This document shows positions 8,031-27,243 of a stretch of DNA of 64,000 nucleotides, in pieces; within the stretch, counting starts at the first letter, position 1; each line of letters begins with the position of its first letter. The position numbers and the translations under genes were made by a program. Where the stretch lies: assembly GCA_963809695.1 (NCBI GenBank), contig CAWEKI010000009.1, forward strand, positions 762,376 through 826,375. Reading direction: 5' to 3'. The notes beneath the pieces were generated by a model that did not search any database, was not told where the DNA came from, and saw only the letters and a list, made by a program, of their open reading frames with translations. The stretch is from an uncultured Bacteroidota bacterium (GTDB lineage: Bacteria > Bacteroidota > Ignavibacteria > UBA10030 > UBA6906).

Positions 8031-8431
8031 GCGTTTATCTCCTGTATGGGGTCATGGTACTCAGCTTCAAAATTTGCAATATCCATGCCATTTTATCGTC
8101 TGGCTCGTGCGCTTCAATGCCTGCAACCGAGGCAAGAAAAGCAATATTCCTCCAGGGAGGATTCAACCAACACGATCCAATTCGATAATATCATTGGATT
8201 TCGGTTCAGTTGGCTAAAAGATGTTCGTTCAGTGAGGAATCCTGATCCTGTTGCTCAACATAGGTCCTGGCATGTCAGGACAACAAGTGCATTGGGAATG
8301 GATCCCGCGATAACGGGTATCGGGAAGAGTGTGGGGATTTGTTGGAGATCTTGAGGGACCGGCATACCCGCTCCGGAAGAATTCGGAGCGGGCGTGAGCA
8401 GCACAATCATCGGCCGGTTGACTGGAAGGAT

Positions 8432-8803
8432 CTACTTCGGCTTTGCGGTCAGCACTTTCACATCAGGCTTGCCGACAACTCCGGCTTTCTCCATTACTTC
8501 CTTCAGCTTGGGACTGGTCGTGAATGCCTCTGCAGCGGCAGCGCTCGGGAATTCTCCGATGACGCTGATCATGTTAGGATTGTTGACATCAGCATAGACG
8601 CCTGATACCTTGAACCCTGCGTTCTTGCGGTTCGATGCATCCGCATCGAACCCCTTGCGCCAGGAGCTGTAGTCCTTCACCTCGTGCGTGACGATGACGA
8701 AGACCTTTCCGTCATGGGCTGGCATCTTCATCGCCTCCTGAGCTGACACACCTACGGCGAGAAAGAGAGTCATTGCTACCACGAGAAACAGATATTTGGC
8801 CAA
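8432..8803 (-). CDS. small exported hypothetical protein (~120 aa)
   Basis: TTG start preceded by an AAAAGGAGG ribosome-binding site. Signal peptide MAKYLFLVVAMTLFLAVGVSAQ. No recognisable catalytic motif. Confidence 0.5.
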   Translation of the reverse strand: MAKYLFLVVAMTLFLAVGVSAQEAMKMPAHDGKVFVIVTHEVKDYSSWRKGFDADASNRKNAGFKVSGVYADVNNPNMISVIGEFPSAAAAEAFTTSPKLKEVMEKAGVVGKPDVKVLTAKPK

Positions 8804-8989
8804 ATTGGCCTCCTTTTATGATGTGTTTGGGTTGGTGGTGAACTCAGGACTCCTAACCTGGTAGAGGGCAATATAGTTCCTTTGGCTTGTTGAGTGCCGG
8901 CGACTCTTGTCGCCGGACGAGACCCCGATGCTCTTTATCGGGCAGCTACTGGGTAGGCCGCAGTTCGCGGCCGTGACTAACGAGCCTGC

Positions 8990-9376
8990 TCATTGGCCTT
9001 GAGGCGGCTGCCATAGCTCGACCTTGTTTCCCTCTGGATCAATGACCCAGGCAAACTTCCCGTACTCGGATTCGTCAATCTTCTCGAGCACATTGCAGCC
9101 TTCTTCCTTCAAGGCCTTGACCAAGGCGTGGAGGTCTTCCACTCGGTAGTTGACCATGAAGGGAGCAGAGCTCGGAGCAAAGTGATTACTTTCTTGCGGA
9201 TCGATGAACCAGGCAGTTGTGCCTGCAACCGGCTTGCCCTCGGCGTCGGTCCAATCGAAGGCAGCTCCGCCCCAGTCTTGGACATCGATTCCCAGGTGCC
9301 GCTTGTACCAAGCCTGCAGTGATGGAGCGTCTTTGGCCTTGAAGAAGATGCCGCCGATGCCAGTGACTCGCTTCAT
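8990..9376 (-). CDS. VOC family protein (glyoxalase / bleomycin-resistance fold)
   Basis: 128 aa reading GIGGIFFKAKDAPSLQAWYKRHLGI ... FAWVIDPEGNKVELWQP, the typical paired beta-alpha-beta-beta-beta VOC module. Confidence 0.75.
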   Translation of the reverse strand: MKRVTGIGGIFFKAKDAPSLQAWYKRHLGIDVQDWGGAAFDWTDAEGKPVAGTTAWFIDPQESNHFAPSSAPFMVNYRVEDLHALVKALKEEGCNVLEKIDESEYGKFAWVIDPEGNKVELWQPPQGQ

Positions 9377-12340: not shown

Positions 12341-12378
12341 TGCCCCGTCGTCTAATGGCAAGACAGCAGACTCTGGAT
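12341..12378 (+). other. 38-nt fragment identical to the 5' half of tRNA-Gln(CTG), covering acceptor 5' strand through anticodon position 38; not a functional tRNA
   Basis: tgccccgtcgtctaatggcaagacagcagactctggat matches 21961..21998 exactly (38/38), then diverges. No T-arm or 3' acceptor strand follows. Confidence 0.8.
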
Positions 12379-12585: not shown

Positions 12586-13494
12586 TCATTCATTGAGCAA
12601 GTCGGATGGTTCAATGTGCACCAAGACTTCCGCAACATTTGGATTTGACGTGCGGATCACTTGCCTTACCTGGCGCGCAATGTCGTGTCCGTGCCGGACA
12701 GAGAGATCCCCATCGACAGTCACATGCAGGTCGACGTAATAGGAAAAGCCCATCTTCCGGACATAGCACTTTTCCAACCCGACAACTCCTTCCACGTATT
12801 GTGCGGCTTGTCGGATGCTACGATCGACATCGGGTGATGGGGCGCTATCCATTACTTCATTGATAGCAGGTCGTATAATTCGGTAGGCGTTGAACAGGAT
12901 AATGGTGGAAGCAAAAAATGCAGCGTAGTCGTCCGCACTTTCATATCCAACCCCTCCAATTAACGAAATGGAAATGCCGATGAACGCTGCAGCCGAAGTG
13001 ATTGCATCGCTGCGATGATGCCAGGCGTCGCTCTTGACAGCTGTACTGTTGATGCCTTTTCCCACGCTGAACACGAACCGAAACAGGGATTCTTTTGTAA
13101 CAACGACGAGAACCAGGACCGCGAGCGTAAATGCCGCTGGAGCGTGGTGTGGAGTTAGTATTTCGCGAACACTCTGGATAGCGATGCCGATCGCTGCCCC
13201 AATGAGAGTCAAGGAAACCACCACGGCGGCGAGAGGTTCTGCCTTGCCGTGACCGTAAGGATGGTCAGCATCCGGAGGGAGGGCGGCAATCTTGAGTCCA
13301 CTCCAGACAATAAGAGAGCTAACAATATCGGTGGTTGATTCGATCGCATCGGCTATGAGGGCGTAAGAATTGCCAAGAACGCCCGCAACACCTTTGATCG
13401 TTGCGAGGGCGGCGTTAGCGAGTATTCCAATCAGAGTGGAGCGTAAACCTTTCAGGGCGGAGTGGGACACTTTCATGTTTTGTGGTGATGTCAT
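12586..13494 (-). CDS. cation diffusion facilitator (CDF) family metal efflux transporter
   Basis: 302 aa with six TM segments plus a C-terminal cytoplasmic domain. Motifs: ALIADAIESTTD, DAWHHRSDAITS and the H-rich/D-rich metal sites typical of CzcD/FieF. Confidence 0.85.
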   Translation of the reverse strand: MTSPQNMKVSHSALKGLRSTLIGILANAALATIKGVAGVLGNSYALIADAIESTTDIVSSLIVWSGLKIAALPPDADHPYGHGKAEPLAAVVVSLTLIGAAIGIAIQSVREILTPHHAPAAFTLAVLVLVVVTKESLFRFVFSVGKGINSTAVKSDAWHHRSDAITSAAAFIGISISLIGGVGYESADDYAAFFASTIILFNAYRIIRPAINEVMDSAPSPDVDRSIRQAAQYVEGVVGLEKCYVRKMGFSYYVDLHVTVDGDLSVRHGHDIARQVRQVIRTSNPNVAEVLVHIEPSDLLNE

Positions 13495-13715
13495 TGCCAG
13501 GCCTTAGGTTTCATAAGAAGTCCAGGCAACCCTACCACTGTCCTGAGCGACGCCGTTGAACGGCGAATTTTCCTACCATGCACGAATAATCACGCAAAGT
13601 TGTTGAAGATGTGAAGATGGTTTCGGTTCTCCATGCCCAGTCCGATCACCTGGCTGGCTTCGGAGTAGGGTTCATACAGGCGTCGAGAATTATCCTGTTC
13701 AAGGGGTAATCGTAA

Positions 13716-14678
13716 CTACTTTGGTTGTGGGAATTCCTCGGACGTCGAGACGTTTGCGCTTCCATGTGGTCGCATAATCGAGGCCATAACCGACAGAAGC
13801 AGAATCCCGGCAACAACACCTAACGCGATACCAATCGGTATCTCGTAGATGTCAACAATTACCATCTTCACTCCCACAAAGACGAGGATACCAGAAAGTC
13901 CGTAGTGCAGGTAGTGGAAAAGCTGCATGATCCCGGCCAGTGCAAAGTAAAGTGCGCGCAATCCAAGAATCGCAAACACGTTCGATGAGTAGACGATGAA
14001 CGGGTCCTGTGTGATCGCAAGAACGGCAGGGATCGAATCCACGGCGAACACAACGTCGGTGGTTTCAACCACCAGAAGAACAACGAACAACGGTGTGGCA
14101 AGAACGCGCCCACCCCTTCGGGCGAAGAACCTGCTTTCTTCATATTCCTGAGTCACAGGCATGATGCGCCGGAAGAGCTTGAGGACAGGATTGTTTTCCG
14201 GGTGGATTTCCTTATCCTTGTGCATTGCCATCTTGATGCCGGTGAACATCAGGAACGCCCCGAACAAGTAGATGACCCAATGAAATTGCTGGAGAAGCGT
14301 CACACCGGCCGCAATGAAGATGGCGCGCATGATGAGCGCTCCGAGAATCCCCCAGAAGAGCACCTTGTGCTGATAGAGAGCCGGGACCTTGAAGTAGGAA
14401 AAGGTTAGCAAGAAGACAAAGATGTTATCCACGCTCAGCGACTTCTCAAGGAGGTACCCCGTCGCAAATTCAAGCGCGGTTTGCGGACCGCGCAGGTAGT
14501 ACACCCCTACGCTGAACAGAATGGCTAAGGCGATCCAGAACCCGCTCCACGCGAGCGCTTCTTTAATTCTGACAATGTGAGCCTTGCGATGGAACACCCC
14601 TAGATCAAGCGCCAGCATCGCGAGAACGAGCATGTTGAAGCCAACCCACACGGAGAGATTGTTTGTCACTGAGTCCAT
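13716..14678 (-). CDS. TerC family integral membrane protein
   Basis: Polytopic. Motifs: VWVGFNMLVLAMLALDLGVFHRK, LEKSLSVDNIFVF and VDSIPAVLAITQDPFIVYSSNVFAILGLRALYF match the TerC/Alx family. Start taken at MDSVTNN (14678); the ORF extends to 14750. Confidence 0.85.
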   Translation of the reverse strand: MDSVTNNLSVWVGFNMLVLAMLALDLGVFHRKAHIVRIKEALAWSGFWIALAILFSVGVYYLRGPQTALEFATGYLLEKSLSVDNIFVFLLTFSYFKVPALYQHKVLFWGILGALIMRAIFIAAGVTLLQQFHWVIYLFGAFLMFTGIKMAMHKDKEIHPENNPVLKLFRRIMPVTQEYEESRFFARRGGRVLATPLFVVLLVVETTDVVFAVDSIPAVLAITQDPFIVYSSNVFAILGLRALYFALAGIMQLFHYLHYGLSGILVFVGVKMVIVDIYEIPIGIALGVVAGILLLSVMASIMRPHGSANVSTSEEFPQPK

Positions 14679-14910
14679 TATCAGTCCACCGGATTGAGTC
14701 CCTGGATTATGGCAGCACTTGATCCACGCGATGCACATCCATGTCGACACCTTCGTAGGGCTGTTCGCCTTCGCCGAAGGTGCCGCCGACGGATGGAGTG
14801 CTCAGAGAGAAGTCCCTGACCAGTCCATCGACCGCTTGACACCCTCTTGTCTTCTCGTCAGATAGCCTCCGTACATGATTGCTTTGCCAACCATCAACGC
14901 CCTTGGTTCA

Positions 14911-15219
14911 CTACTTAATTTTGAACACTCGGAACAGTTTGTCCAACGCTCGTTTATCAAGCTCTGCAAGAACATCAATTTCTCCGGCATCAAGCCATAC
15001 GCCGTCGCACGAGCAGCATTTATCTACTTTGATCCCTTTGTAATCGATCTCTCTCAATTCCATCCCGCATTTCGGACATCTCATGTGGTGAAGATCCCGC
15101 AGCATCCTCTTTTCTTCTCCTCCAAGGCTTTTCCGCCGTTCGTGTTCCAGCTGTTTTCTCTTCTCCACTTCGACTCTCGCAAAGTATTCCTCTTCCTTTA
15201 GACTCCGTTGCACGGGCAT
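14911..15219 (-). CDS. zf-TFIIB-type zinc-ribbon domain protein
   Basis: CPKCGMELREIDYKGIKVDKCCSCDGVWLDAGEID is the C-x2-C...C-x2-C-D-G-x-W-L-D zinc-ribbon pattern. The N-terminal half is a charged helix. Confidence 0.65.
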   Translation of the reverse strand: MPVQRSLKEEEYFARVEVEKRKQLEHERRKSLGGEEKRMLRDLHHMRCPKCGMELREIDYKGIKVDKCCSCDGVWLDAGEIDVLAELDKRALDKLFRVFKIK

Positions 15220-15325
15220 TGCGTTAACTCCTTTTTTGTCGTGAATTCATCCAATCCCCATTCGAATGCATTGAGGCCGCGAGCTGACACGAGGAAGGTC
15301 AGAGTTTAGATACGATGGTGTCTTC

Positions 15326-16213
15326 CTACTTTGTATCAAGTATTACAGGCAAACCATCTTTTCCTGCGCCAACGATGATCACCTTGGTGTTCGGTGAGTT
15401 TGCGATCTTCTCTGTTGCTTCAATTCCTTTCCAACGCAGCAACTGTTCGCTGATTCCTGCCGCTACAATTGTCTGGAAGTCGGCGATACCCTTTGCTTCG
15501 ATGCGCTTCCGATCCGCTTCCTGCTTCTCCTTTGTGAGAATGAATTCCATGCGCTGGCTTTCCTGGTCGGCTCGTTGCTTCTGTTCTATCGCTTCGGTGA
15601 GCTGTGTCGGGAGCGCGACATTGCGGATTGGGGTATTCTCAATCGTGACACCCCGAGGGGCAACTGTCGTGGCAAGCCCTTCCTGAATCGATGTACCGAG
15701 CCGCTCCCGTTCGCTTGAATACAATGCGTTGGCCTGAAAGCTTGCCGCGACTGCGCGGCAGATCGATCTGAATTGTGGTATGAGGATAATCGTTTCGTAG
15801 TCGCCGCCGGCAACGGTCTTATAAACGCGCGCCGCTGAGTCGGGATTCAGCCTGTATAGGGCGCTGACCTCCAATCCGATGGTCAGCCCTTCGCGTGAGA
15901 GCACTTGCATCGTTTCCTTGTGTTCTTGCGTCTGGATAGAATACTTGACAACGTTCGCCAGTGGATTTACAACATTGATCCCTGCCCGAAGCGTGTTGTC
16001 CGATACAACGCCGAAAAAATCCACTACACCCACGTGCCCGGCTGGGATCTGCGTGAAACACTGGAGTAAGGCAACTGTTCCAAACACCCCCGCAGCGAGA
16101 ATGCTTCCTCGTGCAACGGGGCGGAATGCGTTGTTTTGTCGCACCTGTTTCGTGGCGCTTCGCCATACGATGAGGGCCACAATGGCAATAACTACTGATA
16201 GGATGAATAACAT
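15326..16213 (-). CDS. SPFH / band-7 (prohibitin-stomatin-like) domain protein
   Basis: N-terminal TM helix, then an SPFH core (PAGHVGVVDFFGVVSDNTLRAGINVVNPL...VLSREGLTIGLEVSALYRL) and a C-terminal coiled coil. Start at 16213 has an AAAGGAG ribosome-binding site. Confidence 0.85.
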   Translation of the reverse strand: MLFILSVVIAIVALIVWRSATKQVRQNNAFRPVARGSILAAGVFGTVALLQCFTQIPAGHVGVVDFFGVVSDNTLRAGINVVNPLANVVKYSIQTQEHKETMQVLSREGLTIGLEVSALYRLNPDSAARVYKTVAGGDYETIILIPQFRSICRAVAASFQANALYSSERERLGTSIQEGLATTVAPRGVTIENTPIRNVALPTQLTEAIEQKQRADQESQRMEFILTKEKQEADRKRIEAKGIADFQTIVAAGISEQLLRWKGIEATEKIANSPNTKVIIVGAGKDGLPVILDTK

Positions 16214-16306
16214 GATGTACTCCTTTGCGGGTATGTGTGTACACATTCTCTCTTGAGTGGCGACTACCACCTTACGTCTAACACACTGTTCGTCCGGTCG
16301 ATGACT

Positions 16307-17407
16307 TCACTCCCCAGTGAAAGTGCCCGCAGTGACTCCATCGCCGTCGTATTGGTGCAAAGAACTGTTTTGGGGAAACGTCGTCCGAAATCGCAGCAGG
16401 CATCCTACACCGCCAAGCCGATCCAACGCCTCACTCTGATTGACGATTTCGATTGTACATCGATGTTGTTCGGCGAGTGTCACCATCTTGTCCTTCATGT
16501 GGAATTCCGGGTCGAAAGATTCCGCCATCACAAGAACGTCTGTAACACCCAACTGCAGAGCTTCCAATGTAGCCTCTGCACCAGCAACTGCAAGGCCGTC
16601 TGTATTGATCTCTCGAACAAGTCGGTCGACCATCTCCAGTGACTCCTGCTCTTCCCTTTCCACAAACGCGGCAATTGTCCTGGTGACAATGTCTTGAACG
16701 TTGGCTTGACGGGATATGTCCACTACATCGACGAACTTTGCAGAAAGATGATGTGGGAGTGCGTTCCGCAACTGCCATGCCGATTCACCCGCCAGGATGA
16801 GATGTGTGTGGCCTCCGGACGACATCACACGGTCGAGCACCTTGACCTCTTCCTGCATAAATGTCTCCCTCCGAAGTGCCCGGCGGTGCTGGTACTGCTG
16901 TCTCGTCCACGTCTGATCAACATGTTCACGGAGCTTGGGCTGAGCAGTCCAGAGTTGTTTCGTTACCTCCCCGAGATTCACTTCCAATATGCGCACGCCT
17001 TTGTAGTTCAAGGCGACTACCACGTACCGATGATATGTATCTTTCATCTCCACCAAGTGATAGACGTTGGGATAGGGGCCCACAGCGATCATATTGGGAA
17101 GTGGAGGCTTGAACTGAAGCGGCAGAAAGAACGGACGTAATCCGCCGCGGGCAAATATTGCCGCACCCCGACCCGTCCGGTACATTTCCTCCGACATGTA
17201 ACGACCGACACTCTCCATTGCTTGCTGGAAATGAGAGAGGTGGCCTAGCGGGAGGCTGTCCTTAAGCAATGACACCCGATGCTTGGTGAATTCCCGCAGT
17301 TCTGCCGCACTGTTCTGGAGATTCATGTAGACGCTGACCACTGGCGCTTCGGTTTCTTCGAGTGCGACCAGCATGCGTATGTGATCTTGTAGTTCCTTGA
17401 GTTCCAT
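16307..17407 (-). CDS. bacterial eRF1/Pelota-like (baeRF1-type) protein
   Basis: 366 aa. The C-terminal segment DGLAVAGAEATLEALQLGVTDVLVMAESFDP matches the conserved motif of eRF1 domain 3 / Pelota C-terminal domain (G-x-A-V-Y-G-x-x-E-V-x-x-A-L-E-x-G-A-V-x-x-L-L-V-S-D). The overall length and N/M/C organisation fit this family. GGGGAG ribosome-binding site. Confidence 0.6.
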   Translation of the reverse strand: MELKELQDHIRMLVALEETEAPVVSVYMNLQNSAAELREFTKHRVSLLKDSLPLGHLSHFQQAMESVGRYMSEEMYRTGRGAAIFARGGLRPFFLPLQFKPPLPNMIAVGPYPNVYHLVEMKDTYHRYVVVALNYKGVRILEVNLGEVTKQLWTAQPKLREHVDQTWTRQQYQHRRALRRETFMQEEVKVLDRVMSSGGHTHLILAGESAWQLRNALPHHLSAKFVDVVDISRQANVQDIVTRTIAAFVEREEQESLEMVDRLVREINTDGLAVAGAEATLEALQLGVTDVLVMAESFDPEFHMKDKMVTLAEQHRCTIEIVNQSEALDRLGGVGCLLRFRTTFPQNSSLHQYDGDGVTAGTFTGE

Positions 17408-17672
17408 TCGCGATTCTCCCCTTTTGTAGCTAAAGATGGCTGTAGATCAACTACTCCAAGGCGTCACCGTGCAATTGTCTTGAGAAGACCTCCCACAGCT
17501 TGTTGCGCAGCCGGGGGGGCAACTCCAAGCCAGTACAACCGATTGCTACAGAGGAAGAAGTAATGAACCCTCCCATGCCCTCGCAAACGAAAAACGTGTG
17601 TTCCGCATTGTTTTCTTCTCGGGCATTTTTCCGCCTTCTGCAATTGTTGTCATGGAATCACAGGATCCCCGG

Positions 17673-18626
17673 TCACTGCCGGCGGACGAGCTCAACGATT
17701 TGGTTAACGTCGATTGCGCCGGCCTTTTGCTGGATCTCACCGGAATAGCGCGTGTGCATGCTCTTCCCCTGATTCAGCCGCGATGCGAAGAGTTTTTTGA
17801 GCCGGTTGACGTCAATAATGCGTCCGCATTCGTAGTACTGCCGGGCCACTTGGCCCAACGCATAGGTGGTCGCAAACGAGAAGGCGGAACCGACAGCCGC
17901 GGATCCCAGTCCGCCCAGCATGCTGCCACCAACATTCTTGAGCAGCCCACCAAGGAGCTTGCGCCCCATTTGCTCGATGTACTGCCCCGTGATTCCTACT
18001 CCGAGCGTCGCCGCGAAATCCTTTATATGTCCGCGGTCTAGCTCGTATCCGTATGACTTGCCGATAGAGTACACCATCTTCATTTGCAACGGAAGAATGG
18101 CCATTGACGCGAGCGATTGTGGTAGAAGTTCCAGTGCTCCATTGAGGATTGAGTAATTCAGTATTGTTGCGTCCAGTGCTGCTACATCCACTACCGCTCG
18201 CGCGCTGGCCGATTGCATTACCGGTGCCAGTGCCCTGCCAGACTCTACGGGAGTGTTAGCGATTTTAGCGGCTTCCTCCGCGAAGGCTTGGGCCGATGTG
18301 GGATCAAGCGCTAACTTGGTTCGTAGGCGACCCAGAAACACCCTTTCCGCCTCATTGTGTGTTCCATCTGTATCGCATACGCATACGGCCATCTCGTAAG
18401 CGAGCTGACGTGATTCGGTGCTGATCAGTTCCGGAACGGCATCGTCCAACGTCCACCGCTTAAGGAGGACATCTTGATAGAGTCTGGAAAGGTCGATGGC
18501 AGGGCCAGACACCAGGCTCTCAGAGATGCGTTTGATCTGGACGCGTTCCCTTTCGTCCTTACAACCGTCGGCGAAAGCAGCCATCAGACATATGCTTAGC
18601 ACAGCTTCTTGTTCTCGTTCGTTCAT
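17673..18626 (-). CDS. TerB-like (tellurite-resistance TerB / DUF533-like) domain protein with a Gly-rich C-terminal region
   Basis: The N-terminus EQEAVLSICLMAAFADGCKDERERVQIKRI is the TerB-type helical motif (h-x2-h-A-x-A-D-G-x5-E). The C-terminal half GGLLKNVGGSMLGGLGSAAVGSAF is glycine-zipper-like. GGAGGT ribosome-binding site at the MNEREQ start. Confidence 0.55.
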   Translation of the reverse strand: MNEREQEAVLSICLMAAFADGCKDERERVQIKRISESLVSGPAIDLSRLYQDVLLKRWTLDDAVPELISTESRQLAYEMAVCVCDTDGTHNEAERVFLGRLRTKLALDPTSAQAFAEEAAKIANTPVESGRALAPVMQSASARAVVDVAALDATILNYSILNGALELLPQSLASMAILPLQMKMVYSIGKSYGYELDRGHIKDFAATLGVGITGQYIEQMGRKLLGGLLKNVGGSMLGGLGSAAVGSAFSFATTYALGQVARQYYECGRIIDVNRLKKLFASRLNQGKSMHTRYSGEIQQKAGAIDVNQIVELVRRQ

Positions 18627-18976
18627 TGCACCTCCTCGCAATTGAATCTTGATTGTGGGCCCCGGATGTTGCCGAGAAGGATCCGGTTGATCTATGATAT
18701 ACTATCGTGTTGTGGAATCTGAAAGCTGCGGCATCCAGCACTTTTGTGATGGATGCTTGACATGCAAAAACAGCGCACGGGGCTTTGCGCATCACCTTTG
18801 TCGCAACGCTGCCGAGCTACGCCTGCGCCAGCCCCGTGCGTCCTGACTCCCATACCCATGGTTGTCCGCCTTTTCTTCTCTGCGCACGGGATGATCTGAA
18901 CCAAGGGCTGCCCAATCCCGGACGAGGACCTCACAGGCGCCTCCCTTGCTCCTGGCTCCTTTTGCCAGGCGAGCCA

Positions 18977-19375
18977 CTATTTCAGGGATCTTATGCTTTG
19001 CTGACATGCCATCATTCTCCTTTCAGTGCCATGCTTCCAGTTTCTCAGGTCAATCCCAAGATGTGATTTGATCACCACGATTAACGTCTCCACAGGAGTA
19101 ATCCCTTCGATGATGCAAAGGATCTGTTCCTTGTGGAAGATCACTGCCGGCGCATGTGTGATGCCAAGCCGCGCCAGAGCCTCACTCCCTTCGCAATTGC
19201 GGAGAATGTAGAGATCAATATCGTCCTGGACTATCGTGGCGAGTTGTTGCATGATTCGCATTTGCATTCTGCATGTTCCGAACGTCTCCGAGTGAACATA
19301 CAAAACCGACGGCTTTGACGATTCAAGAGCACGGGATTCAAATTCGCGAGCGGAAATCTCAACTAACCGAGTCAT
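18977..19375 (-). CDS. thioredoxin-like fold protein (no CxxC motif)
   Basis: KPSVLYVHSETFGTC...LGITHAPAVIFHKEQILCIIEGITPVETLIVVIKSH has the beta-alpha-beta / beta-beta-alpha topology signature of the thioredoxin family. GGAGGA ribosome-binding site. Confidence 0.5.
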   Translation of the reverse strand: MTRLVEISAREFESRALESSKPSVLYVHSETFGTCRMQMRIMQQLATIVQDDIDLYILRNCEGSEALARLGITHAPAVIFHKEQILCIIEGITPVETLIVVIKSHLGIDLRNWKHGTERRMMACQQSIRSLK

Positions 19376-19592
19376 AGTGTTATCCTCCGGATGGATGTCT
19401 TGTTCCTGAAACAGGCACACTCTAGTTTCATCTTGCGAGACACGTATTCACCTGCGGCTTGCAGCGCACCCGGGACAAACCCGCAGCCCTTCGGTGCTGC
19501 CTCGCACCTGAACGAAGCCCCAGAGCGATGCGCACTGTCTGCACTGCACTCTCCGTGTGAATGCCGGTGGTCATCGCTCCTTCCTTGCACAC

Positions 19593-19943
19593 TTACAAAG
19601 GTTCCAGATAGATGACGATGATCAGATCCTCCGGCTGAGTTCCAAAGATGTAGTGAATGCGCTTGATGCCTCTTTGGAGAAACTCAGCTATCCTCGCCCA
19701 CAAAACATGTTCTGATTTCTTGAATAAGTGCTCGCGCAGTTCGTGATACGATGCAACCGTGATTCCATTCCTTTCACGCAAGCCTCGTTCGGCGGGTGGC
19801 AGAAGACCCCGTATAAGCACTATAGCGATGTCTTCGGTGATTTCAGTTTTCATCTCGCTGGGATTTGCTCCCACATGGGCGACCAGGAAATTCTTCACAA
19901 TAAGATTGACCCCTTTCGCCAGACTTTGTGTTGTGGTGTCCAT
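19593..19943 (-). CDS. DUF2294 (MpsC-like) family protein
   Basis: 116 aa. LIVKNFLVAHVGANPSEMKTEITEDIAIVLIRGLLPPAERGL is the DUF2294 signature. It is paralogous to 21056..21421. Confidence 0.7.
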   Translation of the reverse strand: MDTTTQSLAKGVNLIVKNFLVAHVGANPSEMKTEITEDIAIVLIRGLLPPAERGLRERNGITVASYHELREHLFKKSEHVLWARIAEFLQRGIKRIHYIFGTQPEDLIIVIYLEPL

Positions 19944-20413
19944 GATACGATCTCCGTGCCTGATTGGGAATGGAGTGGAATAATGTGCGAAAACGTGACG
20001 GCCTGCTGCTTCCCGATCATCACAGTGACCTCTGCGCCAACCACGAAACCCGACGCTGCAAGCTCTCCTCTGAATGTCTTGACACTGGGTGCGCCACGTC
20101 TCATCTTGTTCGACATGATGGCAATGACAACGCCAGCTGGACGAGGACCTTTCGGATCGTGGAACTTTTGTTCACCGCCGTGGTCGATCCAGAAGCACGC
20201 ACGACTAACCTGCGCATTGGCAATCCATCCCTTCGGATATAGAATCCCGAAGCCGAAGGCCGGATCCGTGGACACTTGTCTCCCGCGGATCTCGGGGAAG
20301 TCAAGTTCTATCTGCGTGGTGAACCGGGCCATAGGTAGGCCGAGCATTACCATGCCAACGCTCAACAGAACCCTGTATTCATGCGAAATCCACCTTTCAC
20401 AGTCTTGCCTCAA
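19895..20413 (-). CDS. hypothetical protein (possible membrane-anchored)
   Basis: 172-aa ORF with a hydrophobic N-terminal segment, overlapping the upstream gene by 49 nt in another frame. Chosen over the antisense ORF 19728..20417, which is Cys/Trp-rich and non-protein-like. The call is weak. Confidence 0.3.
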   Translation of the reverse strand: MRQDCERWISHEYRVLLSVGMVMLGLPMARFTTQIELDFPEIRGRQVSTDPAFGFGILYPKGWIANAQVSRACFWIDHGGEQKFHDPKGPRPAGVVIAIMSNKMRRGAPSVKTFRGELAASGFVVGAEVTVMIGKQQAVTFSHIIPLHSQSGTEIVSWTPQHKVWRKGSILL

Positions 20414-21055
20414 GTGATTGGCGGATATGCACCCGCGGCAGCCAGCTCGGGCAAGTAAGACTTAGGGAACAATCAGAAAATGTTGCGGGGCTAGAATACT
20501 GGGGGTGCTTTGTTGCAGAGCGTGGAGTAGTAGAGAGAGCGATTGCAGAAAGAAGGGAGAAGCGAAATGACAACAGGGGGTTGATTCGCAGGGCGTGGTA
20601 CCGCCACTCTTGAAGGGACGCCTGGAGAAGGGGAAGACCGTTTTACCGCTCTCTTGAGCCCATGGTCGTTGACCGATAGGCTCGTTCCCTCCGTGGACGC
20701 GATGAAATCAGAACGAATCTCCTTCTTCGCCAGAGGCGGTGTCGAAGGCCGCCACTCCTTGACGCCTGCCACACTGATTGAGCCAGCGGCAAGGAGAACA
20801 ACGACGATATTTCTGGCAAAGCAGAGCATTGGCTGTACGCCTGATTCTTGTACTGCTATTGAACCGATCTACTTGACTTCATGAAACGAAAAAACCAACG
20901 CTTGTCATCATAATCGTGACTTGCATTGGTTTACCGTTCACCAAATCTCCCCTGAGCTAGAGGGAATATCTCGTGACCCGTCTACCTGATTTGTACAGAC
21001 TTCACACTCAATATACCGCCGATCACATTCAATGTCAAGCAGAATCGGTAGAGAC

Positions 21056-21421
21056 TCACGAGAGTCCTCTCTGTGTGAAGACAATAATGCGTTCGCCCGT
21101 CTTAGCGCTGATATCCGAGTGCATGCTCACAACATCGCGGGCAGTGATTTGCTTGATGAGGCCCTTTACCATATCCTTTGAGTTCTCGATGAGCATTTGA
21201 CGCATTTCTTTTAGCAACTTTACACCAGCCAGATCTTTTGACAGTTGCATTTCTGCGGGGGTCAGAACGCCCTCCAGTCGTACAATGATCATATCGTCAA
21301 GAATGTACGTCTGCACACGGTTCGGTCCCCGTCCCATGTGTTCTCGCTCGAACTTAACCATCGCTTCGCTAATTTGGGCTTCAAGTTGCCCTTTGGATTT
21401 CTGAGGCATGTTGGAGTGCAT
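21056..21421 (-). CDS. DUF2294 (MpsC-like) family protein
   Basis: LEAQISEAMVKFEREHMGRGPNRVQTYILDDMIIVRLEGVLTPAEMQL is the DUF2294 N-terminal motif. Confidence 0.7.
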   Translation of the reverse strand: MHSNMPQKSKGQLEAQISEAMVKFEREHMGRGPNRVQTYILDDMIIVRLEGVLTPAEMQLSKDLAGVKLLKEMRQMLIENSKDMVKGLIKQITARDVVSMHSDISAKTGERIIVFTQRGLS

Positions 21422-21960: not shown

Positions 21961-22034
21961 TGCCCCGTCGTCTAATGGCAAGACAGCAGACTCTGGATCT
22001 GCTTATCGAGGTTCGAATCCTTGCGGGGCAGCCA
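21961..22034 (+). tRNA. tRNA-Gln (anticodon CTG), CCA encoded
   Basis: 7-bp acceptor stem tgccccg/cggggca with U1-A72. Anticodon loop cuCUGga. T-loop GGTTCGAATCC. Discriminator G followed by CCA. Confidence 0.9.
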
Positions 22035-22583: not shown

Positions 22584-22656
22584 GGCCTTATCGTCTAACG
22601 GTTTAGGACGTAGCCCTCTCAAGGCTAAAATACGGGTTCGATTCCCGTTAAGGCTA
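22584..22656 (+). tRNA. tRNA-Glu (anticodon CTC); no encoded CCA
   Basis: Acceptor ggcctta/taaggct with a G1-U72 wobble. D-stem gtct/ggac. Anticodon stem tagcc/ggcta with loop ctCTCaa. T-arm acggg-TTCGATT-cccgt. Confidence 0.75.
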
Positions 22657-22754
22657 CATAACTCAACCCCTCCCATCTCCCCTTCTCTTTGAAGAATAAG
22701 AGAAGGGGAGTGTGTTGCGCCCCGCCTCCGTTCTCAGTTCACGTTTACCATTCT

Positions 22755-23840
22755 CTATTGATACGCGGCCCTCTCTAATTCGTCAACCGATTTAAACGGT
22801 GTTGGTGGCTTCAGATACTTTGCGAGGAAATTGTAGATCTTCATCCGTGTCTCCTTCGCAAGCTTCGTGTCGATCCTGTCGAAGCTGTGTCCTCCCGGCG
22901 CGTCCGTAACAATCTCATACTCGAACTTCTTCCCGGCCGCTTTCAGCGCTTCGATGAGATGTTCCACTTCGAGGACGTTCACATCGTCGTCGTTCGTATT
23001 CGTGTGGATGAGAAGAGGCGTGTTGAGCTCCTTGACGTGGTTCACCGGCGAGCGTTTCCTGTATTCGGCCACATCTTCGTTCGCAGTCTTGCCAAGATGG
23101 TACGGTGCCGAAAATTCCTGCCGATAATCATCGTCGTAGTATCCCATCCGCTGGACGAGGTCGCTCACCGGCACGCCGGCGAAGGCCACCTGGTAGTCGC
23201 TCGGGTGCTGAAAGATATCCATGAGCGTAATGAGTCCTCCGTGACTCCAGCCGATCGCGCCGACTCTACCGCCGTCCACGAAGTCATAATTCTGGATCAT
23301 GTAGTTGCGCGCGGCGTGGTTGTCGTCCACCTCCAGCCCGCCGTAGTCGATCTTCTCATAGAAGGATTTGCCATATCCCGTGCTGCCCCGGTATTCCGGA
23401 GCCACCACGATGTATCCCTGCGCGATCAGCTCGCGGATGATATGGGTATGATAGGTCGTAAAGTCGGCATGGACACCGCCATGTGGCAGCACCAGGAGGG
23501 GATATTTCTTTGAATGGTCAAGCTTTCGCGGGGCGAAAATGTATGCCCAGAATTTCAGCGGATTGCGGGCTCCCATGGCCGTGGGATTTTGCACATGGGC
23601 AGGAGGAGGCCCGACAATATAGACCTTGTCGATGCTGGCCACATCGCTGACCTTGTCATACCAGAGTACGTCATCCACCGCTTTTGCGAGCTGGTCGATG
23701 CGGTGGTCGAGCGCTTCGAATTTCTTGTCCAGCAGCTTTTCTAGCCGGGCGTTGTCATTGTCTTTCTCCTGCGAGAAGGCCGGACCGGAGAGAAGAATGA
23801 GAATGAACGCCGCCACAAGGGCGAATGCAGAGGATTTCAT
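22755..23840 (-). CDS. S9 family peptidase / alpha-beta hydrolase (prolyl oligopeptidase-type catalytic domain), secreted
   Basis: Signal peptide MKSSAFALVAAFILILLSGPAFSQ. Catalytic-domain motifs: VVAPEYRGSTGYG, IGWSHGG (the nucleophile elbow G-x-S-x-G), and a C-terminal D...H region. Confidence 0.8.
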   Translation of the reverse strand: MKSSAFALVAAFILILLSGPAFSQEKDNDNARLEKLLDKKFEALDHRIDQLAKAVDDVLWYDKVSDVASIDKVYIVGPPPAHVQNPTAMGARNPLKFWAYIFAPRKLDHSKKYPLLVLPHGGVHADFTTYHTHIIRELIAQGYIVVAPEYRGSTGYGKSFYEKIDYGGLEVDDNHAARNYMIQNYDFVDGGRVGAIGWSHGGLITLMDIFQHPSDYQVAFAGVPVSDLVQRMGYYDDDYRQEFSAPYHLGKTANEDVAEYRKRSPVNHVKELNTPLLIHTNTNDDDVNVLEVEHLIEALKAAGKKFEYEIVTDAPGGHSFDRIDTKLAKETRMKIYNFLAKYLKPPTPFKSVDELERAAYQ

Positions 23841-24078
23841 AGAGCACACGAGAGAAGTGAGAGAGAGCAAAAATGAAACGAATGTGATAAAAGATACTCT
23901 TCGGGAAGACGACAATCAATCAAGAAGCGCAAGGAGTTAAAGAATGGAAGATGGAGAATCGAAAATCGAGGATGGAGGGATTTTTCTCCTCAAGATGAAG
24001 AAGTCCAAAAAAACTTGGCCCCCATCTCGGAAAAACGACTTACGGACTGTAATACATATAGGAAGGAGGAAGCAATCA

Positions 24079-24459
24079 ATGGCCAAAGGAGACGATCTAC
24101 AGGAACGGTTCGTGAAACTGGCGGCTGCAGTGATTCAGTTGACCAGGAAGCTGCCGAAGGATGATGGGGGAAAACACCTGGGTGGGCAAATATTGCGCAG
24201 CGGAACTTCACCGGCACCTAATTACGCCGAGGCGAGAGGAGCAGAGAGCGACAAGGATGTTGTGCACAAGCTGGGCATCGTGCTAAAGGAGTTAAATGAG
24301 ACGGTTGTGTGGCTCCAGGTGGGAGCATGCAGCAACATCTGCACAGAAGAGGCGGTGGCCGGAATTCTGGAGGAGTGCCGGGTGCTGGCCAGGATCATTG
24401 CGGCGAGCATTAGCACGGTCAAAAGAAGAGTAGGAGCATTACCTGGTAGTGGCAGCTGA
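24079..24459 (+). CDS. four-helix-bundle protein (23S rRNA IVS protein / Avd-like family), second copy
   Basis: KGDDLQERFVKLAAAVIQLTRKLPKDDGGKHLGGQILRSGTSPAPNYAEARGAESDKDVVHKLGIVLKELNETVVWLQV matches the same family pattern as 22163..22531. GGAAGGAGGA ribosome-binding site before the ATG at 24079. The ORF-track extension back to 23944 is translated repeat DNA. Confidence 0.75.
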   Translation: MAKGDDLQERFVKLAAAVIQLTRKLPKDDGGKHLGGQILRSGTSPAPNYAEARGAESDKDVVHKLGIVLKELNETVVWLQVGACSNICTEEAVAGILEECRVLARIIAASISTVKRRVGALPGSGS

Positions 24460-24496
24460 TGTACAAGGGCGGATAAAAAAGACAACTCCAGCTTTG

Positions 24497-24596
24497 AGAG
24501 CCGGAGTTGATCGAAGATGAAGATTCGAGAATCGAAGATCGAAAATGACCCGCAATTCTCGATCCTCGATTTTCAATCCTCGATTTTCGATTCTTG
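24497..24596. repeat. hairpin/inverted-repeat element with atcgaaaatcgagga units, lying between the second four-helix-bundle gene and the 3' end of tRNA-Arg(ACG)
   Basis: gaagattcgagaatcgaagatcgaaaatg...attctcgatcctcgattttcaatcctcgattttcgattc contains complementary arms. A related left copy, ggagaatcgaaaatcgaggatgg, sits at 23950..23975. Confidence 0.5.
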
Positions 24597-24670
24597 TGCG
24601 CCTGGAGGGACTCGAACCCCCAACCGTCTGATCCGTAGTCAGGCACTCTATCCAATTGAGCTACAGGCGC
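24597..24670 (-). tRNA. tRNA-Arg (anticodon ACG); no encoded CCA
   Basis: Reverse complement GCGCCTGTAGCTCAATTGGATAGAGTGCCTGACTACGGATCAGACGGTTGGGGGTTCGAGTCCCTCCAGGCGCA. Acceptor gcgcctg/caggcgc, anticodon loop cuACGga, T-loop GGTTCGAGTCC. Confidence 0.85.
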
Positions 24671-24775
24671 ATTTGGACATCAAATATACGAAACCTCGTG
24701 CAGCAATGCAACCTGGTTTGGACAGTCGTCGGGATTCTCCAGAACTGGATAGGCATCTCCGTTCATCTGTCGCTC

Positions 24776-25921: not shown

Positions 25922-25941
25922 TGGCAATCCTTGCCTGGCTA

Positions 25942-27000: not shown

Positions 27001-27077
27001 CGAGGGAGTCCTTATGTAATAGAGGAAAGATATACGATTCCCGGGTTTGGGTCAAGCTGGGGACAAGACGAACACAG

Positions 27078-27213
27078 AGGGAGGAGAAAAATTGAGGATG
27101 GAAGATGGAGGATGGAAGATGGAGGATGGAGGATGGAGGATGGAAGATTGAGAATTGAGCCTGCCTTTACATAATTTTCAATCCTCGATTCTCAATCTTC
27201 GATTTTCAATCCT
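27078..27213. repeat. degenerate long hairpin with no ORF; left arm is ggatggaagatggagg tandem units, right arm is tcaatcctcgattctcaatcttcgattttcaatcctc
   Basis: The left arm has about 6 tandem 11-12-bp units (gaggatggaag/atggaggatgg). The right arm is its approximate reverse complement around the loop cctgcctttacataa. Its sequence family is the same as the repeats flanking the 24079 gene. Confidence 0.5.
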
Positions 27214-27243
27214 CGTGCGCCTGACAGGAGTCGAACCTGCAAC
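27214..27243. repeat. 30-bp direct duplicate of the 3' end of tRNA-Arg(TCG)
   Basis: cgtgcgcctgacaggagtcgaacctgcaac at 27214..27243 is identical to 27326..27355. Two small hairpins (27248..27291 and 27297..27319) separate the copies. Confidence 0.8.

What the first reader, a model, noticed from the sequence alone, without database searches (positions are those of the whole stretch)
14911..18626. Operon coupling an eRF1/Pelota-like (baeRF1-type) protein with TerB-like, SPFH and zinc-ribbon proteins
Four consecutive same-strand genes with 35-265 nt spacing and good ribosome-binding sites. In order of transcription they are TerB-like, baeRF1-like, SPFH and zinc-ribbon. The release-factor-like protein keeps the conserved eRF1-domain-3/Pelota C-terminal motif (LAVAGAEATLEALQLGVTDVLVMAES) but lies outside any translation-factor context. 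Bacterial aeRF1-like proteins are rare. They have been predicted to act in ribosome-associated quality control or as tRNA/ribosome-directed effectors in conflict systems. TerB modules are recurrent in stress and defence operons. SPFH proteins scaffold membrane microdomains. The combination looks like an uncharacterised membrane-associated translation-stress or defence module, sitting inside the tRNA-Gln-bounded island.
Basis: partly seen in the sequence, partly recalled or inferred. Interest (0 to 1): 0.7.

Follow-up and report, generated by a model that had tools for sequence, protein, structure and literature searches.

The report
Balon-like ribosome factor in stress cluster
The four genes are real, but the release-factor-like one belongs to a widespread, already catalogued bacterial family (relatives of the ribosome hibernation factor Balon) and sits in a loosely conserved, shuffling cluster of membrane and ion-stress genes, not in a fixed four-gene machine or a defence system.

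Summary

The proposed TerB-like/baeRF1 pair is not conserved: it occurs in 2 of 84 related loci. Three patterns do recur:
- baeRF10-SPFH, with MpsC upstream, in a subclade of Bacteroidota- and Ignavibacteriota-labelled genomes (8 of 15 loci).
- Across phyla: TerC (23 of 84), Usp (17), the 101-aa zinc-ribbon protein (12), HPF/RaiA (11), Ion_trans (10) and HtpX (9).
- A variable slot upstream of baeRF10, which here holds the TerB/DUF697 gene.

The cluster extends beyond the reported coordinates, to TerC and CDF downstream and to thioredoxin-like and MpsC genes upstream. The whole 9.6-kb block is flanked by a 38-nt direct repeat of tRNA-Gln. No defence signature was found.

Best reading: a Balon-type A-site ribosome parking factor, co-regulated with membrane, ion and pH stress genes. 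One real difference from Balon is that this subclade has lost the C-domain insert, which is the EF-Tu hairpin in Balon and a Cys4 zinc ribbon in most family-10 members. Verdict: new member of a known kind, of modest interest.

The parts
16307..17407 (-). 366-aa bacterial aeRF1 homologue of Pfam baeRF_family10 with an eRF1_3 C-domain. It belongs to the Balon superfamily. It has no NIKS, no GGQ and no C-domain insert.
17673..18626 (-). 317-aa protein with an N-terminal TerB/DUF533 domain and a C-terminal helical, Gly-rich domain that resembles DUF697 (YcjF). It occupies a variable slot upstream of baeRF10.
   Evidence: Pfam. Relatives are 60-76% identical across phyla and some are named 'YcjF family protein'. 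AF2 model is all-helical, and only the N-domain resembles the structure 2h5n. It is next to baeRF10 only here and in L084.
15326..16213 (-). SPFH/Band_7 membrane protein with an N-terminal transmembrane segment. The likely start is the ATG at 16213; the ORF runs on to a GTG at 16270. It is the conserved downstream partner of baeRF10 in the Bacteroidota/Ignavibacteriota subclade.
   Evidence: Pfam Band_7 E=8e-27. AAGGAG precedes the ATG at 16213. Hydropathy. Adjacent to baeRF10 in 8 of 15 subclade loci against 1 of 69 others, Fisher p=1.2e-6.
14911..15219 (-). 102-aa Zn_ribbon_TFIIB protein with a charged N-terminal helix, from a highly conserved uncharacterised family of about 101 aa.
   Evidence: Pfam E=1.4e-14. 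Homologues are 62-84% identical in several phyla. Within 4 kb of baeRF10 in 12 of 84 loci, sometimes directly upstream. It also occurs with Band_7 or P-type ATPases without baeRF10.
13716..14750 (-). TerC/Alx-family membrane protein. The likely start is the ATG near 14678. It is the commonest neighbour of family-10 baeRF1 genes across phyla.
   Evidence: Pfam TerC E=2.7e-53 and NCBIfam TIGR03718 at 433 bits. Present in 23 of 84 loci. No riboswitch found upstream.
12586..13494 (-). Cation diffusion facilitator (CDF) efflux transporter. It is the last gene of the same-strand block.
   Evidence: Pfam Cation_efflux plus ZT_dimer, and TIGR01297 at 243 bits. The order baeRF10-TerC-CDF is seen in L003 and L011.
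18729..18977 (-). Remnant of a universal stress protein (Usp) gene. Only the C-terminal half remains and it carries an internal stop.
   Evidence: tblastn with the Usp of L001: 37% identity over 83 aa, E=1e-9, with a stop codon inside the alignment.
18977..19420 (-). Thioredoxin-like protein. The likely start is the ATG at 19375.
   Evidence: Weak Pfam Thioredoxin match, 22.2 bits against a 23.5-bit cutoff. Conserved upstream of baeRF10 in L001, L061 and L007.
19593..19943 (-). MpsC-domain (DUF2294) protein, paralogue 1.
   Evidence: Pfam MpsC E=5.6e-10. MpsC lies upstream of baeRF10 in 8 of 15 subclade loci.
19895..20413 (-). Conserved hypothetical protein (orf172) lying between the two MpsC genes.
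   Evidence: No Pfam hit. Homologues sit at the same position in L001, L008 and L084.
21056..21421 (-). MpsC-domain protein, paralogue 2. It is the first gene of the same-strand block.
   Evidence: Pfam MpsC E=1.3e-37. It is 82-88% identical in L005, L010, L061 and L084.
12341..12378 (+). Exact 38-nt copy of positions 1-38 of tRNA-Gln. It forms the left boundary of the block.
   Evidence: k-mer search and the sequence itself.
21961..22034 (+). Intact tRNA-Gln (CTG anticodon). It forms the right boundary of the block.
   Evidence: ARAGORN and Rfam.

Best explanation
The 366-aa protein is a family-10 member of the bacterial aeRF1 (baeRF-1, Balon) superfamily. It most likely binds the ribosomal A site under stress as a non-catalytic parking or hibernation factor, as Balon, Rv2629 and MSMEG_1130 do.

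It is encoded in a roughly 9-kb same-strand cluster of stress genes concerned with membrane, cation, pH and inorganic-carbon homeostasis: MpsC x2, thioredoxin-like, TerB/DUF697, SPFH, zinc-ribbon protein, TerC and CDF. These genes are linked mainly by co-regulation, not as a fixed protein machine.

The cluster has a conserved backbone with variable slots: MpsC - MpsC - [slot] - baeRF10 - SPFH - [carbonic anhydrase] - ZnR - [ion transporters]. In this genome the TerB/DUF697 gene fills the upstream slot. Relatives have HtpX, rubrerythrin, Usp or DksA there.

Shown here: family membership, fold, absence of NIKS and GGQ, and the neighbourhood statistics. Inferred: ribosome binding, lack of catalysis, co-transcription, and the inducing stress.
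For: Identity:
- Pfam baeRF_family10 at 52.6 bits, above the 27.1 cutoff, plus eRF1_3.
- The family profile aligns full-length to Rv2629 (E=5e-11) and MSMEG_1130 (E=1e-10).
- NIKS is found in 0 of 117 family members, and no GGQ occurs in the M domain.
- The M-domain loop shares V..W...[F/Y]-Q-H with Rv2629.

Function by context, from 84 non-redundant family-10 loci in more than 10 phyla:
- HPF/RaiA is adjacent in 11 loci (median gap about 80 nt in the cluster of 8 loci found). Usp is nearby in 17, HtpX in 9 and DksA in 8.
- This is the kind of stress and hibernation context reported for Balon and the baeRF-1 clade (PMC10901736; PMC6514570).

Module structure:
- The synteny table shows the backbone and its slots.
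- The closest relative, L005 (83% identity), reads DksA-HtpX-baeRF10-SPFH-Pro_CA-ZnR-Ion_trans-SbtA.
- L084 repeats the window's order with CNNM and Pro_CA inserted.
- The partner genes also occur together without baeRF10, for example Band_7-ZnR, ZnR next to a P-type ATPase, and TerB/DUF697 next to a P-type ATPase.
Against: - There is no experimental data for any family-10 member.
- The protein scores far below the NCBIfam equivalog cutoffs for the two validated Balon subfamilies (55 against 320 bits; 23 against 480 bits).
- It has no literal HP dipeptide. The aligned position reads Y116-H117.
- Burroughs and Aravind singled out family 10 as possibly catalytic because of a conserved Gln.
- No HPF gene lies in this window.
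- The M-domain loop of the model has low confidence, with pLDDT 54-66.
- The tight and subclade-specific baeRF10-SPFH adjacency could reflect a physical partnership, not only co-regulation.
Confidence: 0.6

Rival explanations
1. The protein is a catalytic release or rescue factor. Family-10 baeRF1 would keep peptidyl-tRNA hydrolase activity through a conserved glutamine and would free ribosomes stalled during stress. These could include ribosomes stalled on membrane-protein mRNAs, given the HtpX, SPFH and TerC neighbours.
For: [quoted passage not shown]
- Q173 is present in 94 of 117 members and Y172 in 114 of 117.
- In the pairwise alignment to eRF1(AAQ), the window's V163-D164-Q165 lies opposite GGQ.
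- aRF1 and eRF1 are nearly as close in fold as Balon.
Against: - No Gly-Gly precedes any candidate Gln.
- In the eRF1 alignment Q173 falls inside the helix, opposite A191, not in the loop.
- The same Gln aligns with a Gln in Rv2629 and MSMEG_1130. Both are hibernation factors described as lacking GGQ and as excluded from the catalytic centre.
- The family consensus at the position opposite GGQ is V-G-R, not Q.
- Loss of the NIKS motif argues against stop-codon-dependent release.
Confidence: 0.15
2. The genes form a physical membrane-associated module. SPFH, possibly with the zinc-ribbon and TerB/DUF697 proteins, would recruit or regulate the baeRF1-like protein at the membrane. Ribosome silencing would then be coupled spatially to membrane or ion stress.
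For: - baeRF10 and SPFH are adjacent with gaps of 29-93 nt in 8 of 15 subclade loci, against 1 of 69 elsewhere.
- The zinc-ribbon gene lies directly upstream of baeRF10 (-36 to -198 nt) in several Acidobacteriota and Thermodesulfobacteriota loci.
- SPFH has an N-terminal transmembrane segment.
- Membrane-anchored hibernation factors have a precedent in YqjD/ElaB/YgaM (bioRxiv 10.1101/2024.08.16.608256, abstract).
Against: - Most family-10 genes have no SPFH neighbour: 75 of 84 loci.
- SPFH-ZnR pairs occur without baeRF10.
- TerB/DUF697 is next to baeRF10 in only 2 of 84 loci.
- The baeRF1-like protein has no hydrophobic segment or obvious docking domain.
- No interaction evidence can be obtained with these tools.
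Confidence: 0.15
3. The module is an anti-phage or conflict system in which the aeRF1-like protein is a ribosome- or tRNA-directed effector, carried on a mobile island.
For: - TerB domains and baeRF-1 have been discussed in conflict contexts (PMC6514570 abstract).
- The block is bounded by a tRNA-Gln direct repeat and has lower GC than the rest of the window, 0.520 against 0.561.
Against: - No significant PADLOC hit for any of the four proteins.
- The neighbours are housekeeping-type stress and ion-homeostasis genes, not nucleases, NTPases or toxins.
- No integrase or other mobility gene lies in or next to the block.
- The family is broadly distributed with HPF and Usp neighbours.
Confidence: 0.03

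Closest known systems
Balon ribosome hibernation factors (P. urativorans Balon; M. tuberculosis Rv2629; M. smegmatis MSMEG_1130)
   Same: - Three-domain aeRF1 architecture.
- Full-length profile alignment.
- No NIKS and no GGQ.
- A shared V..W..[F/Y]QH segment in the M-domain loop with Rv2629.
- At family level, adjacency to HPF/RaiA and stress genes.
   Different: - Only 16-19% identical.
- Far below the NCBIfam equivalog cutoffs.
- A different Pfam subfamily (family 10).
- No C-domain insert, so no EF-Tu-binding hairpin.
- Y-H at the position aligned with the H-P of MSMEG_1130.
- Neighbours are dominated by membrane and ion-homeostasis genes (TerC, SPFH, HtpX, channels). Word searches of the two papers' main text found no mention of these.
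- No experimental data.
Archaeal/eukaryotic release factor aRF1/eRF1
- Most family-10 members even keep a Cys4 zinc-ribbon insert in the C-domain, as archaeal aRF1 does (PMC6514570).
   Different: - No NIKS, YxCxxxF or GGQ motifs.
- The window protein has lost the zinc-ribbon insert.
[quoted passage not shown]
Pelota/Dom34 ribosome rescue factor
   Same: - Best single profile hit in PDB (3j15_A, E=3e-11, covering the M and C domains).
- Non-catalytic A-site binder, which serves as a functional analogy.
   Different: - The N-terminal domain aligns with the aeRF1/Balon type, not with Pelota's Sm-like barrel (domain description from PMC6514570). The Pelota alignments cover only the M and C domains.
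- No partner GTPase of the Hbs1/aEF1a type or ABCE1 in the neighbourhood.
Pfam PF18854 baeRF_family10 (Burroughs and Aravind 2019)
   Same: The protein is a member: 52.6 bits against a 27.1-bit cutoff. It shares near-invariant motifs such as PN[IV]YHLVE[LM]KDTYHR and GGVGCLLR[FY].
   Different: It belongs to a subclade (at least 50% identity; MAGs labelled Bacteroidota or Ignavibacteriota) that lacks the roughly 32-aa Cys4 insert found in 59 of 81 family-10 loci. This subclade is also the one linked to SPFH and MpsC.
E. coli YcjF (DUF697) and TerB-domain proteins
   Same: - N-terminal TerB/DUF533 match and C-terminal DUF697-like match.
- NCBI names close relatives 'YcjF family protein'.
- ycjXF has been discussed as linked to the psp operon and the sigma-32 heat-shock regulon, although the authors found only a weak association (PMC3041696).
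   Different: - Both the TerB and DUF697 matches are at or below the Pfam cutoffs.
- No strongly hydrophobic transmembrane segment.
- No YcjX-like NTPase partner.
- No solved structure resembles the C-terminal domain.

Membership tests
Pfam baeRF_family10 (PF18854), the bacterial aeRF1 clade | Score above the curated gathering threshold of the family HMM | tested here: met
   52.6 bits against a 27.1-bit cutoff, E=7.7e-14, covering residues 113-247. eRF1_3 scores 32.7 against 25.8 bits.
Balon / baeRF-1 ribosome hibernation factors | Three-domain aeRF1-like architecture (N, M and C domains) | tested here: met
Balon / baeRF-1 ribosome hibernation factors | Absence of the NIKS stop-codon recognition motif | tested here: met
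   NIKS and NI.S are found in 0 of 117 family members, including the window protein.
Balon / baeRF-1 ribosome hibernation factors | Absence of the GGQ catalytic motif in the M domain | tested here: met
   The window protein has no GGQ. The few GGQ strings in the family lie elsewhere, mostly at N-domain positions 88-89, with single cases at 36, 54 and 232. The loop reads HVDQTWTRQQYQHRR.
Balon / baeRF-1 ribosome hibernation factors | HP motif in the N domain that contacts the decoding centre | tested here: inconclusive
   The window protein has no HP dipeptide. The 'IHPL' of MSMEG_1130 aligns with the near-invariant 'VYHL' (Y116-H117) of family 10, and Rv2629 has 'VVPL' there. I could not confirm from the paper's text that this is the published HP motif.
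Balon / baeRF-1 ribosome hibernation factors | Beta-hairpin insertion in the C domain that binds EF-Tu | tested here: not met
   The window protein and all relatives of at least 50% identity have no insert between 'SFDP' and 'EFHMK'. Of 81 family-10 loci, 59 carry a CxxC...CxxC insert of about 32 aa at this site, and the mycobacterial Balons carry roughly 25-30 extra residues there.
Balon / baeRF-1 ribosome hibernation factors | Equivalog-level match to a validated subfamily (NCBIfam NF052289 Rv2629 family; NF052288 MSMEG_1130 family) | tested here: not met
   55.4 bits against a 320-bit cutoff, and 22.6 bits against a 480-bit cutoff. It is a distant relative, not an equivalog.
Balon / baeRF-1 ribosome hibernation factors | Genomic association with HPF/RaiA and stress-response genes | tested here: met
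   At family level: HPF in 11 of 84 loci, Usp in 17, HtpX in 9 and DksA in 8. In the window itself there is no HPF, but there is a Usp remnant and stress and ion genes.
Balon / baeRF-1 ribosome hibernation factors | Binds the ribosomal A site and inhibits translation | not testable with these tools
   This requires pelleting or cryo-EM and in vitro translation assays.
Classical release factor aRF1/eRF1 | NIKS, YxCxxxF and GGQ motifs, and equivalog score (TIGR03676) | tested here: not met
   The motifs are absent. TIGR03676 scores 26.8 bits against a 234.7-bit cutoff.
Pelota/Dom34 | Equivalog score (TIGR00111) and full-length alignment that includes the Pelota-type N-terminal domain | tested here: not met
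   TIGR00111 scores 24.4 bits against a 177.65-bit cutoff, and the match covers only residues 224-341. The PDB Pelota alignments cover only the M and C domains.
Known anti-phage defence systems (PADLOC-DB) | Match of any component to a defence-system HMM | tested here: not met
   The only hit is for the TerB-like protein (PDC-S29, E=0.0028, 15 bits), which is insignificant. The other three proteins have none.
TerB (PF05099) / DUF533 | Score above the gathering threshold | tested here: inconclusive
   DUF533 scores 30.7 against a 29.6-bit cutoff (met). TerB scores 21.1 against 24.4 bits (not met). Close relatives carry precomputed PF05099 hits. The N-domain of the model resembles 2h5n only weakly.
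SPFH / Band_7 (PF01145) | Score above the gathering threshold | tested here: met
   94.9 bits against a 23.6-bit cutoff.
tRNA-integrated genomic island | Direct repeat derived from the tRNA, an integrase, and absence from close relatives | tested here: inconclusive
   The 38-nt exact repeat is present and the GC content is lower. No integrase or remnant was found. The repeat copies the 5' half of the tRNA rather than the 3' end, which from my own knowledge is the usual case. No sufficiently close genome was available to test for an empty site.

The most novel reading that the evidence does not exclude
This subclade of family-10 baeRF1 proteins has lost the C-domain insert, which is the EF-Tu hairpin in Balon and a zinc ribbon in most of family 10. 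It may instead work with the adjacent SPFH scaffold and with the membrane quality-control and metal-handling genes around it (HtpX, TerC, the 101-aa zinc-ribbon protein). In that case A-site occupancy of ribosomes, by silencing or by catalytic or non-catalytic rescue, would be coupled directly to membrane-protein biogenesis or to ion and pH stress at the membrane. That would be an EF-Tu-independent, membrane-linked variant of Balon-type hibernation.
Probability: 0.12. Interest if true: 0.7.

Novelty: new member of a known kind. Interest (0 to 1): 0.35.

Why it matters
If the main reading is right, this is one more uncharacterised branch of the Balon/baeRF-1 superfamily. Its value is mainly as a pointer.
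- Family 10 is the branch that Burroughs and Aravind flagged as possibly catalytic, and nobody has tested it.
- The data here show that its commonest neighbours are TerC, Usp, a conserved 101-aa zinc-ribbon protein, HPF, ion channels and HtpX.
- One subclade has dropped the C-domain insert, which in Balon contacts EF-Tu.

These points lead to concrete experiments:
- Does hibernation need EF-Tu?
- Is there a link between ribosome parking and membrane or metal stress?

The finding does not reveal a new kind of system, and the specific four-gene 'operon' is not a conserved unit.

Tried and rejected
- **Defence system.** The PADLOC scan found nothing significant.
- **Riboswitch or leader upstream of TerC or baeRF10.** An Rfam E-value scan of 10-24 kb found only tRNAs. 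Aligning the baeRF10 upstream regions from five loci showed only the Shine-Dalgarno site conserved.
- **Promoters and terminators.** The sigma-70 and terminator scans matched shuffled expectation. Sigma-54-like (-24/-12) motif matches fell only inside coding sequence, and the Bacteroidetes-type TAnnTTTG motif was found only 169 nt upstream of MpsC2.
- **The stand-alone zinc-ribbon protein replaces the lost zinc-ribbon insert of baeRF10.** Rejected. The stand-alone gene accompanies insert-bearing genes (11 of 59) at least as often as insert-less genes (2 of 22), Fisher p=0.50, and the two ribbons are of different types.
- **Q173 as a discriminating catalytic glutamine.** Not discriminating. It aligns with a Gln in both mycobacterial Balons, and with a helix position (A191) in eRF1.
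- **Integrase in or near the tRNA-Gln-bounded block.** None was found by Pfam on the flanking ORFs, nor by tblastn with the integrase of L003. The related loci carry no tRNA-Gln fragments.
- **Structure of the TerB/DUF697 protein.** The model is reasonable (pLDDT 76), but no PDB match reached E<=0.001 (best full-length E about 0.1). Only the N-domain weakly resembles 2h5n.
- **Metagenome scan with the single protein.** It returned only one extra locus, L090.
- **Own-contig look-up.** It returned gene calls but no DNA.

Full report
**Observation.** The minus strand of 14911-18626 carries four consecutive ORFs.
- A 317-aa protein (17673-18626) with an N-terminal TerB/DUF533 match and a weak C-terminal DUF697 match.
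- A 366-aa protein (16307-17407) matching baeRF_family10 (E=7.7e-14) and eRF1_3 (E=1.1e-7).
- A Band_7/SPFH protein (15326-16270).
- A 102-aa Zn_ribbon_TFIIB protein (14911-15219).

Each start is preceded by a Shine-Dalgarno-like motif. For SPFH the convincing start is the ATG at 16213, preceded by AAGGAG, which gives 295 aa as in the homologues. The gaps are 265, 36-93 and 106 nt. Co-transcription remains an inference, because the promoter and terminator scans did not differ from shuffled sequence.

**The cluster is larger than reported.** On the same strand downstream lie a TerC/Alx-family protein (TIGR03718, 433 bits) and a CDF efflux transporter. Upstream lie a thioredoxin-like protein, two MpsC-domain proteins and a conserved hypothetical protein. 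A decayed Usp fragment with an internal stop sits between the thioredoxin-like gene and the TerB-like gene.

This whole block (12586-21421) exactly fills the interval between a 38-nt perfect copy of the 5' part of tRNA-Gln (12341-12378) and the intact tRNA-Gln (21961-22034). Its GC content is 0.520, against 0.561 for the rest of the window. No integrase or integrase remnant is present. The 'island' is thus real as a sequence feature, but its mobility is unproven.

**What the 366-aa protein is.**
- NCBIfam's best hit is the Rv2629-family ribosome hibernation factor. The score of 55 bits is far below the 320-bit equivalog cutoff.
- I built an alignment of 117 homologues (A1). Its profile matches Pelota (3e-11, M and C domains only) and, over the full length, the two mycobacterial Balon proteins Rv2629 (5e-11) and MSMEG_1130 (1e-10).
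- NIKS is absent from all 117 sequences, and no GGQ occurs in the M domain.

The protein is therefore a bacterial aeRF1 homologue of the kind now known as Balon-type hibernation factors (Helena-Bueno et al. 2024, PMC10901736). It falls in the Pfam subfamily defined by Burroughs and Aravind (PMC6514570).

These proteins are not rare. Balon homologues occur in about 20% of representative bacteria. This query alone finds more than 1000 relatives, and 1219, 497 and 143 clusters at 50% identity at E<=1e-3, 1e-10 and 1e-30.

**Is it catalytic?** Burroughs and Aravind singled out family 10 as retaining a conserved glutamine. In A1, Y172 is present in 114 of 117 sequences and Q173 in 94 of 117.
- The profile alignments place a Gln at the same position in Rv2629 (GDFQH) and MSMEG_1130. 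The Balon paper describes both as non-GGQ hibernation factors.
- The pairwise alignment to eRF1(AAQ) places Y172-Q173 opposite F190-A191 in the helix. GGQ then lies opposite V163-D164-Q165, where the family consensus is V-G-R.
- No candidate Gln is preceded by Gly-Gly.

I conclude that catalysis is unlikely but not excluded.

[quoted passage not shown] Burroughs and Aravind regard this two-strand insert as a degenerate form of the archaeal zinc ribbon.
- In family 10, 59 of 81 loci encode an intact CxxC...CxxC insert of about 32 residues at this site.
- The window protein and all relatives of at least 50% identity have no insert at all.
- The published 'HP motif' cannot be located with certainty. 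The H-P of MSMEG_1130 aligns with the near-invariant Y116-H117 of family 10.

**Neighbourhood conservation.** I collected 84 non-redundant family-10 loci: one genome per species from GTDB, plus L084, L090 and the window. I searched their six-frame ORFs with the window's proteins and with representatives of recurrent neighbour clusters that I had first checked against Pfam.

Within 4 kb on the same strand, the counts out of 84 loci are:

| Neighbour | Loci |
|---|---|
| TerC | 23 |
| Usp | 17 |
| Zinc-ribbon protein | 12 |
| HPF/RaiA | 11 |
| MpsC | 10 |
| Ion_trans | 10 |
| SPFH | 9 |
| HtpX | 9 |
| CNNM | 8 |
| DksA | 8 |
| TerB-like | 2 |

In the subclade of at least 50% identity (15 loci, from MAGs mostly labelled Bacteroidota or Ignavibacteriota), SPFH follows baeRF10 in 8 and MpsC precedes it in 8. 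Elsewhere the figures are 1 of 69 and 2 of 69 (Fisher p about 1e-6, not corrected for phylogeny).

The gene orders show a backbone with variable slots.
- The closest relative, L005 (83% identity), reads MpsC-MpsC-DksA-HtpX-baeRF10-SPFH-carbonic anhydrase-ZnR-Ion_trans-SbtA.
- L001 has DksA-Usp-rubrerythrin in the upstream slot.
- L003 and L011 read baeRF10-TerC-CDF.
- L084 (59% identity) repeats the window's order TerB/DUF697-baeRF10-SPFH-[carbonic anhydrase]-ZnR.

**The partner genes are independent.**
- The TerB/DUF697 protein belongs to a very conserved, widespread family (60-76% identity across phyla). Elsewhere it lies next to ExoD, P-type ATPase, MgtC and Bax1-I, or next to MarC, or in unrelated contexts.
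- The 101-aa zinc-ribbon family (62-84% identity across phyla) also appears as Band_7-ZnR, as ZnR next to a P-type ATPase, or as RRM-ZnR, all without baeRF10.

The four genes are thus members of a fluid set of membrane and ion-stress genes that are repeatedly found near each other, not parts of one fixed machine.

The functional colour of that set comes from the literature:
- TerC proteins handle Mn and act at the Sec translocon (PMC10550928).
- MpsAB is a bicarbonate transporter; MpsC is named after that S. aureus mpsABC locus (PMC6689103).
- ycjXF has been discussed in connection with the psp operon and the sigma-32 regulon, though that paper found only a weak association (PMC3041696).
- From my own knowledge, HtpX and SPFH proteins act in membrane-protein quality control.

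A word search of the main text of the Balon paper and of the Burroughs and Aravind paper found no mention of TerC, SPFH, HtpX or 'membrane'.

**Mechanism.**
- Best supported (about 0.6): under stress the protein occupies the ribosomal A site as a non-catalytic parking or hibernation factor, like Balon. It is co-expressed with genes that restore membrane, cation, pH and inorganic-carbon homeostasis.
- Rivals: catalytic rescue or release (about 0.15), a physical SPFH-centred membrane module (about 0.15), and defence (about 0.03).
- Shown: family membership, fold, motif losses and neighbourhood statistics.
- Inferred: ribosome binding, lack of catalysis, co-transcription and the nature of the inducing stress.

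**Verdict.** The translation-stress idea is reasonable and now has a known precedent. The claims of rarity, of a conserved TerB-baeRF1 pair and of defence are not supported.

This is a new member of a known kind, in an untested subfamily with two noteworthy features. One is the loss of the C-domain insert. The other is the consistent company of membrane and ion-homeostasis genes. Interest is modest, at 0.35.

Noticed in passing
window 12341-12378 and 21961-22034: An exact 38-nt direct repeat of the 5' part of tRNA-Gln, running up to the anticodon loop, brackets the whole 11-gene same-strand stress cluster of about 9.6 kb. The block has lower GC than the rest of the window (0.520 against 0.561) and contains no integrase. 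The duplicated part is the 5' half of the tRNA; from my own knowledge the 3' end is the usual target.
   Followed up: partly
window 18729-18977 (-): A truncated universal stress protein remnant, interrupted by a stop codon, lies between the thioredoxin-like gene and the TerB-like gene. Relatives such as L001 have an intact Usp in this slot, which suggests gene turnover upstream of baeRF10.
   Followed up: partly
alignment A1, query positions 296-306; loci L013-L083: About three quarters of family-10 baeRF1 genes (59 of 81 loci) encode an intact Cys4 zinc-ribbon insert in the C domain, as in archaeal aRF1. The window's subclade has deleted it completely. Balon's EF-Tu-binding hairpin sits at the same site.
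   Followed up: yes
L093 4005-5306; L095 3402-5306; L096/L097: The roughly 101-aa Zn_ribbon_TFIIB family is 62-84% identical across several phyla. It recurs next to Band_7 and next to P-type cation ATPases (with a small PGPGW protein) even where no baeRF1 gene is nearby. It is an uncharacterised, strongly conserved small protein that may deserve its own study.
   Followed up: partly
L086-L088 (TerB/DUF697 loci): Elsewhere the TerB/DUF697 protein sits upstream of ExoD, a P-type cation ATPase, Bax1-I and MgtC. This again suggests a cation and membrane-homeostasis role, not a translation-linked one.
   Followed up: no
L005 10152-13426; L084 9346-11272: In the closest relatives the cluster carries a beta-carbonic anhydrase, an Ion_trans channel and, in L005, an SbtA-type bicarbonate transporter downstream of SPFH. 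Together with the two MpsC genes this hints at an inorganic-carbon and pH theme. The window has TerC and CDF in that position instead.
   Followed up: partly
L061 about 8000-9192: In this Ignavibacteriota MAG the baeRF10 homologue (76% identity) is split into two ORFs. This could be a frameshift, a pseudogene or an assembly error.
   Followed up: no
L003 15154-17104: In this Ignavibacteriota locus the baeRF10-TerC-CDF cluster is followed by a two-component system, rubrerythrin, a tyrosine integrase and a Fic protein. This may be another island-like context for the cluster.
   Followed up: no
window 22584-27401 and 23944-24459: A loose group of tRNA genes (Glu-CTC, Arg-ACG, Arg-TCG) lies to the right of tRNA-Gln. 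An ORF there matches the '23S rRNA intervening sequence protein' family. A T9SS sorting-domain (Por_Secre_tail) protein at 6918-8030 points to a Bacteroidota-related (FCB-group) host, from my own knowledge of where T9SS occurs.
   Followed up: no
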